Below, one piece after another: positions 1-4,033 of a DNA stretch of 4,033 bases. The position numbers and the translations under genes were made by a program. Source of the DNA: a virus (taxonomy: Duplodnaviria > Heunggongvirae > Uroviricota > Caudoviricetes); the IMG/VR virus record IMGVR_UViG_3300014614_000008, positions 1 through 4,033 of that record; one strand, 5' to 3'. The first letter of the stretch is position 1. The number at the start of each line of letters is the position of its first letter. The notes under the pieces were generated by a model, which was given only the letters and a program-made list of their open reading frames with translations, searched no databases and was not told where the DNA came from.

Positions 1-407
1 GCCAGGTACGCAGCATCAGACGTTCCAGCATCGGACGGGTAAACTGCCCGGTGACTTCCGGACTGACAGACCATTCACTCCATCGGGTGCGTATCTCCGC
101 TGCCAGATCACGGGCAATGGCCCCATTGCGTAATACCGGATGTGGCTCGACAATAATCCCGTTTTTTCCCACCACCCGTTCTTCCAGCTTGTCAAATACA
201 CCAATAACCAGATCGTGGTTGTTATCAAGGTAACGGGCCTGCTCACGTAACGACACGGCCCCGTACTGGCTTAACTGGTCGGCAGTTCGGTTTTCCCGCC
301 GGGCTTTGTTTTACGGCCTCATAAGCCTGGATCACCGCACGGGAACGCAGCCTTGCCGCTTTCCATCCTGGTGAAAAAACGCCAATCACATCATCAAGAA
401 TTGCCAT
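1..407 (-). CDS. Phage portal protein, N-terminal part (lambdoid prophage portal family); 3' end lies beyond the window; reading frame breaks near 304..316 so it may be a pseudogene or carry a sequencing error
   Basis: ATG at 407..405 overlaps the W stop (minus strand TGATG at 409..405). That frame reads MAILDDVIGVFSPGWKAARLRSRAVIQAYEAVK then hits a stop at 245..243. A second frame, offset by one base, is open from about 310 to position 1 and reads NKARRENRTADQLSQYGAVSLREQARYLDNNHDLVIGVFDKLEERVVGKNGIIVEPHPVLRNGAIARDLAAEIRTRWSEWSVSPEVTGQFTRPMLERLMLRTW (my own translation; this frame is not in the supplied ORF track because it has no stop inside the window). Both pieces resemble lambdoid prophage portal N-termini as I recall them, and the position after terL-W matches lambda Nu1-A-W-B order. 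Confidence 0.7.
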
Positions 408-619
408 CAGAACCTCGCCAGCCGGTACCCGGGATGCCCCCGTCGTCGTGTAATCAGAGCCGCAAGGCGGCGCTCCCACTCCTGCCGTCCCTGCCGGATC
501 TCAGATAAGTTTTCCATGGTCATCTGCTGACCATTAAAGGTGACGGATTTTCCGTCCAGCACCGCCATTTCAGCTTCCGTATAACGCTGAATCATGGCTT
601 CGATATCATTCTGGTTCAT
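407..619 (-). CDS. Head-tail joining / head completion protein, lambda gpW family
   Basis: 70-aa product MNQNDIEAMIQRYTEAEMAVLDGKSVTFNGQQMTMENLSEIRQGRQEWERRLAALITRRRGHPGYRLARF. The C-terminal TRRRGHPGY motif parallels lambda gpW TQRRRGPAGF, and the size (lambda gpW is 68 aa) and position between terL and portal fit. The start at 619 forms ATGA with the terL stop (618..616) and has a GGAGGA Shine-Dalgarno 5 nt upstream; the ORF-track start at 625 (MVM...) sits too close to that SD. Confidence 0.75.
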   Translation of the reverse strand: MNQNDIEAMIQRYTEAEMAVLDGKSVTFNGQQMTMENLSEIRQGRQEWERRLAALITRRRGHPGYRLARF

Positions 620-2717
620 AACCATCCTCCGGAAGTCAGCCAGGGGTTAACATCGTCAGTTACTGTTTTCTTCCGTTTTTGTTTTTTAACAGGCGTGGAT
701 ACCGGTTCCGGTGAGGGTGACGGTTCGGTACTGTCCGGGACACACTCCAGCCAGGTTTCCCGGCTCGCCCACTCCGGTGCATCCGGCCAGCGGATCTTTT
801 CGTATCCATGCAGAATGACCAGAGCCTCGGCATACACCATTAGGTCAAAAGCTTCGTTGGCACCGCGACCCGGCTTACTCCATTTCCCGTCACTACTCCG
901 CTCTTCATACGTCAGTTCGTCGTAAAACCAGCTCCCCAGCCAGTCAGGGAAATGCACATAGCCGGGACCTGGCGAGTCACGCCATAACGCGTTATTCACC
1001 CGGTCTTTCAGGGCATCCGTCTGAAGAAGCCAGAGCGGCACATCACCTGCGGCCTGCGCCCGTCGGCCCGTTCGTCCGGTGTTATCAGGGAATGTACGGG
1101 TGATCAGTTTTGCGCGCCGGATGCTGTCGCCCTTAAACAGGTAAATACGTTTACCAAGGCCATCACGACGGCAACGACGCCAGAATTTATAGGCATTATC
1201 AGTGACCCCGTCTTCACCGCCGGAGTCCACCGCCATTGCCATCAGTCGCATTTGTTGAGAAGGATCGGAGGCCAGCGGCCAGCTTTTATGAAAAACATCC
1301 GTCAGCAGGACATCCCAGTCTTCCGGATAGCTGGCCGGATCAATTCGCTGGCTCTCCCCGTCGCTGTCACCGCGCAATGACTGCGTGATGTTGTAACGAT
1401 CAATAATCCAGCGTTCGCCACGGCTGCCATAGCCCGTTACCTGAACCACAAAACGGCGATGACGTCCCGCCTGCACATCCACTGTCGCCACAAGGAAATT
1501 AACGCCATCCGGCACACTGCGGGAAGGAACTGGCTCTGCCCGCTGCTCAAGCAGTTCACTTTTTCGTTGCTCCATGCTGGCACGGGGAAGATAAGGTAAT
1601 CCCCAGTCGGTATTGATAACCGTCTTGAGTGTTTCTTCACTTCCGGTTGTCTCGTATTCCTGTTCTGCAGTAAGCAGTTTGTAAACGAGTTGCGAGAGTG
1701 TCTGGTAAGCAGCTGCCGGACCCTCCATCCAGAATGACGCAATACGTGAGCGTCGGGGATCACCATAACGACTGCCATCCGCATTGATGGATTCACCATC
1801 CCGCAACCAGACCCCACGTCCGTTCAGCTCACGTTTTTGTTCAGGCATAATCCGTCCTGAACAGGAAGGACACTGAATATAAGCCGCCTCACTTGCCAGC
1901 ACGGGATCGGCAATATCACGGAAACCAGCAACCACATCGCCGCAGGGCTGAAAATACTCACCACAGTGTGGACAGGGCCAGTACCAGCGACGGCGATCGC
2001 CACGGTTATAGAGCGACAGTATCCCCGTGGTTGGTGGAGCCTCATGCGGTGAAGTCCGTCGCCATTTCACATCCTTCACATCCCTGCCGGGGGAACTCTC
2101 CACCAGCGTCATACCACTGGACATAAATGTGGTGGTACGTTTTGAGGCAAGAGAGAAGGCATCCCCCTCGCCATCAATATCTTCCGGAAAACGGTCATAA
2201 TCCGTCAGCGCCACGCATTTATAATCTGATGAGGACATGATATTGACTGACGGCCAGCCGATTTTCAGGTAGTTGCCAGCAAGGAATGTTCTGTCATAAA
2301 CGTTGTTGTCATTTTTGTTCGGACTCAGGCGACTGACCACTTCCGGGCTGACGCGAAACGTTCTGGCAAGTCGTTTTTTGGAGTGTNNNNNNNNNNTTCC
2401 TCCGTCATCTGAATGATCAGCATATCCGCAGGATCGCAAATCACGTTGTAAATCACCCAGCCGTCAATCAGGCCGATAGTCTTGCCGGTTCGTGCCGGAC
2501 CAACAAATATCACTGCGTCGTATTCACGCGAGGCCAGGCAGTTCATCGGCTCAATAACATACGGTGCCACCAGCGGATCCCACGGGACTGAGTTCCCTGC
2601 CCCCATGGGCACCCGCATATACTGAGCAACGGCATCAGCAACCCGCATTCGTCTCGGTGCGCGAAGGATATAACCTGAATCGGTTCGTGCTGCCTTTGCG
2701 GTTTCCTGATTCAGCAT
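616..2717 (-). CDS. terL: Terminase large subunit, lambda gpA family; interrupted by a 10-N assembly gap at 2387..2396 with the frames on either side out of register
   Basis: N-terminal segment (2717 down to 2397) reads MLNQETAKAARTDSGY...YDAVIFVGPARTGKT...DMLIIQMTEE with a P-loop-like GPARTGKT. C-terminal segment (2386 down to 616) contains CPHCGEYF...CPSCSG (compare lambda gpA CPHCGEE), VATVDVQAGRHRRFVVQVTGYGSRGERWIIDRYNI (compare lambda TAGIDSQLDRYEMRVWGWGPGEESWLIDRQII), GKRIYLFKGDS and DLMVYAEAL, ending in a basic tail KKQKRKK. The ORF track splits it into 2325..2717 and 616..2439 because of the N-run. Stop at 618..616. Confidence 0.9.
2387..2396. other. Assembly gap (run of 10 N) inside terL
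   Basis: Ten consecutive N at 2387..2396. The terL frame upstream of the gap (codon starts congruent to 2 mod 3) and downstream (congruent to 0 mod 3) differ, so the N-run is a placeholder of unknown true length. Confidence 0.95.
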
Positions 2718-3211
2718 TACTCCTCCTGCTGTAATTCCTCCTCATCATCCGCACCTGCTTCAGTCACCCGCAGGGCTATCTGATCGCGCAGATCATCAAT
2801 AATGGACTGAACACGGCTCACAGCGGCAGGCTGCAGACCGCAGTCACGTTCAAGAATATCCGGTAATGTCTCCAGCACCTGCACGACCGCTTTTGCCCAG
2901 ATGGCAAACTCCCGTCTGACATCACTGGCCGGAATGAGTTGTGCCGTTTCCTGTTCGAACTTAAGACGCTCACGTTCAGACTGATACCAGGCTTTGCGCT
3001 CATGCGCGTCCATTTCGCCTTCTGCAACCGGCGGTGGTAATGCCAGAAATGCCGACACAATATCAACCACCCGATAAAGCTTGAGGTTGCTTTCATGCCC
3101 CCCTGCAACGGGTAGATTTTGCAGCCTTGCCGCAGCAGTCTGGCGATGTACACCTGACAGTGCCGCCAGTTGACTGATATTCAGCGTCAGATTTTTTAAC
3201 TCTCGATCCAT
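2717..3211 (-). CDS. terS: Terminase small subunit, lambda Nu1-like (DNA packaging protein Nu1 homolog)
   Basis: 164-aa product MDRELKNLTLNISQLAALSGVHRQTAAARLQNLP... with an N-terminal helix-turn-helix-like segment as in lambda Nu1 and an acidic C-terminus. GGAG Shine-Dalgarno at 3220..3217 lies 5 nt upstream of the ATG at 3211. Its TAA stop (2719..2717) overlaps the terL ATG (2717..2715) as TAATG. Sits immediately downstream of a cos-like site, as in lambda. Confidence 0.85.
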   Translation of the reverse strand: MDRELKNLTLNISQLAALSGVHRQTAAARLQNLPVAGGHESNLKLYRVVDIVSAFLALPPPVAEGEMDAHERKAWYQSERERLKFEQETAQLIPASDVRREFAIWAKAVVQVLETLPDILERDCGLQPAAVSRVQSIIDDLRDQIALRVTEAGADDEEELQQEE

Positions 3212-3263
3212 ACCCGCTCCAGAATGTTTTAAACATGCATCTTGCGAACAACTTTAGGCAAAA

Positions 3264-3350
3264 GGTGTTAGTGGTGAACAAAAAACAATCAAAATAGACA
3301 CCATAAAAATAAAATCACCGTAATATCAATACATTACAGTAGTGGTGATG
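3264..3350. promoter_or_regulatory. Candidate cosB-like terminase-binding region: repeats flanking an IHF consensus
   Basis: TAGTGGTGA occurs as a direct repeat at 3269..3277 and 3340..3348, with an inverted partial copy (ATCACCG) at 3314..3320. TATCAATACATTA at 3324..3336 matches the IHF consensus WATCAANNNNTTR exactly and lies between the cosN-proximal repeat and the inverted copy, mirroring the lambda R3-I1-R2-R1 layout. The region is AT-rich and has no plausible ORF. Confidence 0.45.
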
Positions 3351-3380
3351 ACGAATGAAATTTCAAAAACTAGCCTTTTT

Positions 3381-3403
3381 CCGCGACGCTCCCGCCCCGT
3401 GGC
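3381..3403 (-). other. Candidate cosN (cohesive-end nicking site) of a lambda-like phage
   Basis: Minus strand reads GCCACG GGGCGGGAGCGT CGCGG, against lambda ...TTACG GGGCGGCGACCT CGCGGG: 8 of 12 identities in the 12-nt cohesive-end segment (3386..3397) plus matching ACG and CGCGG flanks. It lies about 175 bp upstream of the terS start; lambda Nu1 starts at nt 191 from the left cohesive end. Confidence 0.5.
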
Positions 3404-3568
3404 AGGCCACCCCACCGGGAGGACCCGTCAGCCTGACAGCTCTGACGAACGACTGATACAACGCCTTGCATGAGTGGCATCGGGATAATCCAGAAAGGCA
3501 TAGCATCGTGCCCACAAGAATCTGTGTAAGTGTCCTGTTTCTTCCACCCCCGCACAGGACTGGCGAGC

Positions 3569-3745
3569 ATGAGGGACAAACCCGCGAACCATAAACGCGG
3601 TAAAAACCCGGTGTGCATCGTTTTTGATTATTCCCGCACACTCGCGCAGAAGGAGTTCCCCGTCGGGCTACGGTCTCTGTTAATACGGGAATACGGCGAC
3701 GATACAGCGCATGATGTGTCAGGCTTGAATACCTTTATCCTTTAA
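3569..3745 (+). CDS. Hypothetical small protein (58 aa from the ATG; the ORF track extends it to a GTG at 3530), unknown function; may be non-coding
   Basis: Open frame MRDKPANHKRGKNPVCIVFDYSRTLAQKEFPVGLRSLLIREYGDDTAHDVSGLNTFIL on the strand opposite the packaging genes, between cos and IS1. Only a weak possible SD (AGGA about 9 nt upstream of the ATG at 3569), no convincing promoter, and no family I recognise. Confidence 0.2.
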   Translation: MRDKPANHKRGKNPVCIVFDYSRTLAQKEFPVGLRSLLIREYGDDTAHDVSGLNTFIL

Positions 3746-3827
3746 AAGGGATATCAGTTAAGTTATCCCGTGTAGGGTATAAGCCATTATCAAAGCCACT
3801 CTGTAGGGAATGGCTTTTGTGATGGCA

Positions 3828-3899
3828 TCACTTACTCTTTACGCTGCTATCCCACTCATCCCGGAATTTTGATGGGTTATTGAAACCTTCTGCTGACAT
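3828..3899 (-). CDS. Hypothetical 23-aa micro-ORF with a canonical Shine-Dalgarno; unknown function
   Basis: Minus strand AAGGAG (3910..3905), 5-nt spacer, ATG at 3899..3897, then MSAEGFNNPSKFRDEWDSSVKSK and a TGA at 3830..3828. A 7-bp inverted repeat (AAAGCCA/TGGCTTT, 3792..3798 and 3811..3817) follows. No homolog recognised. Confidence 0.2.
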   Translation of the reverse strand: MSAEGFNNPSKFRDEWDSSVKSK

Positions 3900-3957
3900 A
3901 ACAACTCCTTCAATGTTTGGCTGAAATTAGGATGTCTTTCCATCAGTCCGCCACCAC

Positions 3958-4033
3958 GGTGATGCTGCCAACTTACTGATTTAGTGTATGATGGTGTTTT
4001 TGAGGTGCTCCAGTGGCTTCTGTTTCTATCAGC
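3958..4033 (+). mobile_element. IS1 insertion sequence, left end (first 76 bp); the element continues beyond the window
   Basis: 3958..4033 reads GGTGATGCTGCCAACTTACTGATTTAGTGTATGATGGTGTTTTTGAGGTGCTCCAGTGGCTTCTGTTTCTATCAGC, which matches the canonical IS1 left terminus as I remember it, including the 23-bp terminal inverted repeat at 3958..3980. Confidence 0.9.
4013..4033 (+). CDS. insA: IS1 InsA (transposition repressor / N-terminal part of the InsAB' transposase), first 7 codons only
   Basis: GTG GCT TCT GTT TCT ATC AGC translates to (M)ASVSIS, the known InsA N-terminus, at the expected distance from the IS1 end. Confidence 0.8.

What the first reader, a model, noticed from the sequence alone, without database searches (positions are those of the whole stretch)
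304..316. Frame break early in the portal gene, in a short A/T run
The frame that begins at the translationally coupled ATG (407) stops at 245..243 after about 54 codons, while the portal-like sequence continues in the frame offset by one base from about 310 to the window edge. The switch falls at or next to the TTTT run at 309..312. This is either a real inactivating indel (a decaying prophage) or a homopolymer sequencing error in a draft assembly that already contains an N-gap.
Basis: seen in the sequence. Interest (0 to 1): 0.4.

Follow-up and report, generated by a model that had tools for sequence, protein, structure and literature searches.

The report
14-bp deletion breaks prophage portal gene
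The frame break is real in this sequence, but it is a unique 14-base deletion near the start of an otherwise pristine E. coli lambdoid-prophage portal gene, not a slip in the T/A run; this is an ordinary gene-killing lesion, or possibly an assembly error on a short draft scaffold.

Summary
On the minus strand the portal ATG at 407 overlaps the upstream stop (TGATG). Its frame ends at TGA 245..243 after 54 codons, and portal sequence continues in the +1 frame from 307 to the window edge.

The cause is not a homopolymer miscount. Compared with intact homologs (phage cdtI and about 1,900 complete E. coli genomes), the window lacks exactly 14 bp (AACGACGCGGACAC) at 308-310. The flanks are 100% identical. 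The deletion removes T34-H38, exactly where the lambda-family portal domain (PF05136) begins, so the whole domain is out of frame.

The lesion is private. No complete E. coli genome, phage record, GTDB representative, IMG/VR contig or JGI metagenome contig has this junction. The 54-aa product exists once, on a 4,033-base JGI/IMG contig, so the window is the whole scaffold.

The rest of the packaging module is intact: one synonymous change in 3.8 kb. There is no sign of long decay.

Whether the deletion is biological (about 0.6) or an assembly artefact (about 0.35) cannot be settled without reads. Either way it is ordinary, and interest is low.

The parts
308..310 (-). Junction of the 14-bp deletion. 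The missing bases are AACGACGCGGACAC, or equivalently ACGACGCGGACACA. There is 1 nt of microhomology, so the junction lies at 308/309 or 309/310.
   Evidence: Alignments A1 and A2; whole-window comparison.
243..407 (-). Truncated portal reading frame: 33 authentic residues (M1-K33), then 21 out-of-frame residues, then TGA at 245..243.
   Evidence: The 54-aa product is on record once, from JGI/IMG, on a contig of 4,033 bases.
2..307 (-). Continuation of the portal gene in the +1 frame (K39-W140 of the intact 502-aa protein). It runs off the contig end.
   Evidence: Pfam PF05136 at 62 bits, profile positions 8-110.
254..256 (-). Internal GTG (V56 of the intact protein). It is the first possible restart codon in the portal frame. 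Gene callers use it for a 447-aa truncated portal in other broken copies.
407..625 (-). gpW-like head-tail adaptor gene (72 aa). It is intact, and its stop overlaps the portal ATG.
   Evidence: annotations of phage cdtI and strain AR436; weak DUF6148 match.
616..2717 (-). Large terminase subunit (gpA ATPase and nuclease domains). It is intact except for the N-run.
2387..2396 (.). Run of 10 N standing for 11 real bases, which makes the terminase appear frame-shifted.
2717..3211 (-). DUF1441 protein in the small-terminase position (164 aa), intact.
   Evidence: annotations.
3957..4033 (.). Terminal part of an IS1A copy at the contig end.
   Evidence: Thousands of matches; IS1A transposase is annotated at the matching place in L005-L007.

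Best explanation
The window is a complete 4,033-base JGI/IMG scaffold. It carries the DNA-packaging end of a cdtI/mEp460-type lambdoid prophage of E. coli: a DUF1441 protein, the large terminase, a gpW-like adaptor and the start of the portal gene, all on the minus strand. The portal gene has lost 14 bp (AACGACGCGGACAC) after codon 33. Because 14 is not a multiple of three, translation from the coupled ATG runs into 21 wrong codons and stops. The whole conserved portal domain, which starts at residue 35, is no longer translated from its own start. The portal is the dodecameric ring that nucleates the prohead and through which DNA is packaged. This prophage copy therefore cannot make infectious particles on its own. 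It could still be rescued by recombination with a related phage or by a portal from a co-resident related prophage. The existence, size, position and coding effect of the deletion are shown. That it is a true and very recent mutation in the sampled bacterium, rather than an assembly error, is inferred.
For: The 14-bp gap has 100% identical flanks against phage cdtI, an O157:H7 prophage and strain AR436. A 700-bp query matches 714 bp in about 1,870 E. coli genomes and 16 phages. The coding consequences were mapped on the intact 502-aa portal. PF05136 starts at residue 35 of the intact protein. A 14-bp loss of mixed sequence is not a platform-typical read error. No flanking repeat of 6 nt or more and no significant hairpin exists to drive a spurious overlap join. 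The rest of the contig shows no scatter of small indels; there is one synonymous substitution in 3.8 kb. Independent inactivating lesions in the same 55 codons occur in other assemblies. A portal split into two CDSs is annotated in O157:H7 strain TR01. Portal pseudogenes are therefore common in this prophage family. Defective prophages are a well documented feature of enterobacterial genomes (PMC3945230, found).
Against: The junction is found nowhere else. It is absent from about 2,000 copies in 5,426 complete E. coli genomes, from 16 phage records, and from GTDB representatives, IMG/VR and JGI metagenome contigs. The positive control for the intact allele found at least 120 IMG/VR contigs. 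The scaffold is short and of draft quality: it has an N-run of the wrong length, ends in an IS1 repeat, and has a possibly chimeric join at 3607..3807. The deletion has only 1 nt of microhomology, which is not the usual signature of slippage between direct repeats. No read data are available.
Confidence: 0.6

Rival explanations
1. Assembly or consensus artefact. The organism's portal gene is intact, and the 14 bp were lost when a low-coverage short-read assembly or scaffolder closed a gap or collapsed a bubble between near-identical prophage copies.
For: The lesion is unique to this contig. Everything around it is 100% identical to intact genes. The scaffold is only 4 kb, contains 10 N standing for 11 bases, and ends in IS1. 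Its two ends match different prophage types that share a 201-bp identical stretch, and no complete genome has the window contiguous. E. coli genomes carry up to 5 copies of this region, which complicates assembly.
Against: No repeat or overlap at the junction would make an assembler join there; there is 1 nt of microhomology. No other small indels appear anywhere in the 3.8 kb compared. Fourteen-base deletions are not a typical read-level error of any platform; this last point rests on general knowledge and was not tested here.
Confidence: 0.35
2. Homopolymer-length sequencing error in the T/A run at 309..312.
For: The junction does touch an A-run, which is 5 A in references and 4 A in the window.
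Against: The length difference is 14 bp of mixed sequence. Restoring one A would not restore the frame or the missing residues T34-H38.
Confidence: 0.01
3. The break is tolerated or functional. Either the ribosome shifts +1 near AAA-CAA-AGC to make a near-full-length portal lacking five residues, or reinitiation at GTG 256 yields a working portal lacking residues 1-55.
For: An in-frame GTG at 256 exists, and gene callers predict a 447-aa product from it in other broken copies.
Against: Homologs encode a single continuous frame: all 1,877 full-length matches carry the 14 bp, so there is no conserved recoding site. There is no recognisable slippery motif. Only a weak GGGG lies 3 nt upstream of the GTG. 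A restart would remove about the first 20 positions of the conserved domain.
Confidence: 0.03

Closest known systems
Portal gene of Enterobacteria phage cdtI (NC_009514, gp04) and mEp460-type lambdoid phages and prophages of E. coli
   Same: The DNA is 100% identical on both sides of the junction. Gene order is the same (DUF1441, large terminase, adaptor, portal) and the stop/start overlap is the same.
   Different: The window lacks 14 bp after codon 33, so the gene is frame-shifted. The reference genes encode 502 aa in one frame.
Portal pseudogenes in defective lambdoid prophages of E. coli, such as the split portal in O157:H7 TR01 and the 447-aa truncated portals in DEC1C and Logan assemblies
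   Same: Same gene family, same outcome (loss of the authentic N-terminus) and the same 5' region is affected.
   Different: Those copies carry nonsense substitutions, single-base deletions or rearrangements. None has this 14-bp deletion.
Lambda gpB portal protein (Pfam PF05136, Phage_portal_2)
   Same: The out-of-frame segment matches the family profile from position 8 onward, and the synteny with gpA- and gpW-like genes matches.
   Different: It is only a distant sequence relative of lambda gpB itself, and here it is not an intact gene.

Membership tests
Lambda-family phage portal protein (PF05136) | Sequence match to the family profile above the curated cut-off | tested here: met
   The window's +1-frame fragment scores 62 bits against a cut-off of 32.9. 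The intact homolog scores 276 bits.
Lambda-family phage portal protein (PF05136) | Position directly after the large terminase and gpW-like adaptor in a head-morphogenesis module | tested here: met
   ORF map, Pfam hits for the gpA ATPase and nuclease domains, and annotated homologous loci.
Lambda-family phage portal protein (PF05136) | One continuous reading frame from the start codon through the domain, i.e. a functional gene | tested here: not met
   The frame from ATG 407 stops at 245..243, and the domain lies in the +1 frame. This is a pseudogene, or an error, of a family member.
Homopolymer sequencing error | A length change of one or two bases confined to a mononucleotide run | tested here: not met
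   14 bp of mixed sequence are missing.
Programmed ribosomal frameshift | The two-frame arrangement and a slippery site conserved among homologs | tested here: not met
   All 1,877 full-length E. coli matches, 16 phages and at least 120 IMG/VR contigs have the uninterrupted allele.
Decaying (long-defective) prophage | Several independent lesions or elevated divergence across the module | tested here: inconclusive
   Within the packaging genes there are no other lesions and only one synonymous change in 3.8 kb. An IS1 copy does abut the module at 3957, but the rest of the prophage is not on the contig.

The most novel reading that the evidence does not exclude
The 14-bp deletion is real, and the prophage expresses an N-terminally truncated portal from GTG 256. 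That product would lack residues 1-55. It might still assemble, or it might poison the portal rings of related co-resident or superinfecting phages, acting as a domesticated interference factor.
Probability: 0.03. Interest if true: 0.3.

Novelty: already known. Interest (0 to 1): 0.07.

Why it matters
It matters very little beyond annotation. If real, it marks one prophage copy as unable to build capsids on its own and shows a very recent inactivation event. If an artefact, it is a caution about small deletions in short draft scaffolds. The practical point for the scan is that a frame break next to a short homopolymer should not be assumed to be a single-base slip. Alignment to intact homologs showed a 14-bp deletion here.

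Tried and rejected
1. I looked for the same junction elsewhere. I used a 91-nt BLAST query against complete E. coli genomes, and exact 38-mer and 22-mer scans of GTDB representatives, IMG/VR and JGI metagenome contigs. None found it. The intact allele served as positive control and was found in at least 120 IMG/VR contigs.

2. Exact look-ups of the 54-aa and 78-aa products in the contig index found nothing. The cluster table does hold the 54-aa product once, from JGI/IMG, on a 4,033-base contig. The DNA collections therefore apparently do not contain the source contig itself, and the negative scans are not exhaustive.

3. I followed the 447-aa truncated portal found in DEC1C, Logan and ENA as possible independent carriers. 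Those contigs have different lesions.

4. I used the shared IS1 junction to find close relatives with the same prophage. The three matching genomes share only window 3607..4033 and then diverge at a DLP12-type remnant, so they say nothing about the portal.

5. I searched for hairpins and direct repeats that could explain the deletion. The fold z-score was -0.67, and no repeat of 6 nt or more was found at the junction.

6. The Rfam scan of the window gave only a chance sub-threshold snoRNA match.

7. Programmed frameshifting and homopolymer error were considered and rejected, as set out under the rival explanations.

Full report
**What is in the window**

The minus strand carries a lambda-like DNA-packaging module:
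- a DUF1441 protein in the small-terminase position (3211..2717);
- a gpA-type large terminase (2717..616), interrupted by 10 N at 2387..2396;
- a 72-aa gpW-like adaptor (625..407);
- the start of a portal gene, from ATG 407.

Pfam confirms DUF1441, both terminase domains (GpA_ATPase and GpA_nuclease) and Phage_portal_2. The same gene order is annotated in phage cdtI and in E. coli prophages.

**Checking the observation**

The portal ATG overlaps the adaptor's stop codon (TGATG). Translation from 407 gives 33 authentic residues, then 21 unrelated ones, then TGA at 245..243. The +1 frame has a TAA at 313..311. From 307 to the window edge it reads residues 39-140 of the intact portal without a single change.

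**What the break is**

A 700-bp query across the region matches 714 bp in about 1,870 complete E. coli genomes and in 16 phage genomes. Alignment to phage cdtI and an O157:H7 prophage shows one clean 14-bp gap. The references read GTAAA[AACGACGCGGACAC]ACAAAGCC and the window reads GTAAAACAAAGCC, with every other column identical. The junction can be written at 308/309 or 309/310, because one A is shared.

This is not a change in homopolymer length. The deletion removes the codons for T34-H38 and shifts the frame. Pfam places the start of the portal domain at residue 35 of the intact 502-aa protein. The entire conserved domain is therefore uncoupled from its start codon.

**How unusual the lesion is**

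- A 91-nt query centred on the junction hits 1,877 E. coli records over its full length, all at 86.7%. That is 91 of 105 columns, so all of them contain the 14 bp.
- Exact 38-mer and 22-mer junction scans found nothing in GTDB species representatives, IMG/VR or JGI metagenome contigs.
- The intact allele was found in at least 120 IMG/VR contigs, which serves as a positive control.
- The 54-aa frameshift product is in the 15-billion-protein collection exactly once, from JGI/IMG, on a contig of 4,033 bases. The window is therefore the whole scaffold, and the deletion is in the deposited sequence.
- One caveat applies. The DNA scans did not return the source contig itself, so they are not exhaustive.

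**State of the rest of the contig**

I compared the window with the intact prophage of E. coli AR436. Over window 1..3807 it differs only by the 14-bp deletion, one synonymous G-to-A change at 167, and the N-run, where 10 N stand for 11 bases. There is no accumulation of lesions and no scatter of small indels. If the deletion is real, it is very recent.

The other end of the contig is different:
- Homology to AR436 stops at about 3827.
- Window 3607..4033, including an IS1A end at 3957..4033, is 100% identical to a DLP12-type remnant next to argU in three complete genomes. Those genomes then diverge from the window.
- The 201-bp stretch 3607..3807 is identical to both sources, and no complete genome has the whole window contiguous.
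- This is either ordinary lambdoid mosaicism or a chimeric join.

**Related broken copies**

A 447-aa portal starting at the internal GTG (window 256) is on record from E. coli DEC1C and from several Logan and ENA assemblies. Their DNA shows other lesions in the same first 55 codons, namely CAG-to-TAG nonsense changes, single-base deletions in short runs and one rearrangement. None has the 14-bp deletion. O157:H7 strain TR01 has the portal annotated as two CDSs. Inactivated portals are thus common in this prophage family, consistent with the known abundance of defective prophages in enterobacteria (PMC3945230).

**Real or artefact**

In favour of a real mutation:
- The size and composition of the loss are not typical of read errors.
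- No repeat or hairpin at the junction could cause a spurious join.
- The neighbouring sequence is clean.

In favour of an artefact:
- The lesion is unique.
- The scaffold is short and draft-quality, with an N-run of the wrong length.
- The join at the other end is suspicious.
- Genomes often carry several near-identical copies of this region, up to five.

I put a real deletion at about 0.6, an assembly artefact at about 0.35, and the remaining alternatives together (homopolymer error, recoding or a functional restart) at about 0.04. Only the reads can decide.

**Mechanistic consequence**

This part is inferred from established knowledge of lambda-type portals. Without a portal ring, the prohead cannot be nucleated and DNA cannot be packaged. 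This copy would therefore be unable to form infectious particles unless it recombines with a relative or a relative supplies the portal in trans. Recoding is not supported, because homologs have one continuous frame and there is no conserved slippery site.

**Verdict**

The feature is an ordinary pseudogenising deletion or an assembly error in a well known gene family. Novelty is none and interest is low.

Noticed in passing
window 2387..2396: The run of 10 N replaces 11 real bases relative to intact homologs. The large terminase therefore appears split into two frames (ORFs 2717..2325 and 2439..616), but it is otherwise identical to intact genes. This is a scaffolding gap, not a lesion.
   Followed up: yes
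window 3957..4033: The contig ends inside an IS1A copy, with the terminal inverted repeat starting at 3957. The identical IS1/flank junction occurs in three complete E. coli genomes (13P484A, EC190486, CH4784) at a DLP12-type prophage remnant next to tRNA-Arg (argU).
   Followed up: yes
window 3607..3827: Window 1..3827 follows an AR436-type prophage, and 3607..4033 follows the DLP12-type/IS1 locus. 3607..3807 is identical to both. No complete E. coli genome has the whole window contiguous. This is either a novel mosaic or a chimeric assembly join across a 201-bp shared stretch.
   Followed up: partly
L008-L015, first 55 codons of the portal (alignment A2): Other public assemblies carry independent inactivating lesions in the same 5' segment of this portal gene. 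These are CAG-to-TAG nonsense changes (L008, L010, L012, L013), 1-nt deletions in short runs (L009, L011, L014) and an upstream rearrangement (L015). The sample is biased because I selected for the truncated product.
   Followed up: partly
L002 3722..5303 (E. coli O157:H7 TR01): The homologous portal in this O157:H7 prophage is annotated as two separate CDSs (3722-4846 and 4968-5303). This indicates a different, downstream lesion in a complete genome.
   Followed up: no
window 167: This is the only substitution relative to AR436 within the packaging genes: GGGGAAAAAC becomes GGGAAAAAAC at the boundary of two homopolymers. It is synonymous (Gly) and keeps the length unchanged.
   Followed up: partly
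whole window: The protein collection attributes the 54-aa product to a JGI/IMG contig of exactly 4,033 bases. The exact-match scans of metagenome contigs and viral contigs did not return that contig, and the look-up of encoding contigs had no record of it. The searchable DNA collections evidently do not include the source.
   Followed up: no
window 634..696 (-): The only Rfam match is a sub-threshold SNORD49 hit (18.3 bits against a gathering score of 37, E = 0.5), inside the end of the terminase gene. It is a chance match.
   Followed up: yes
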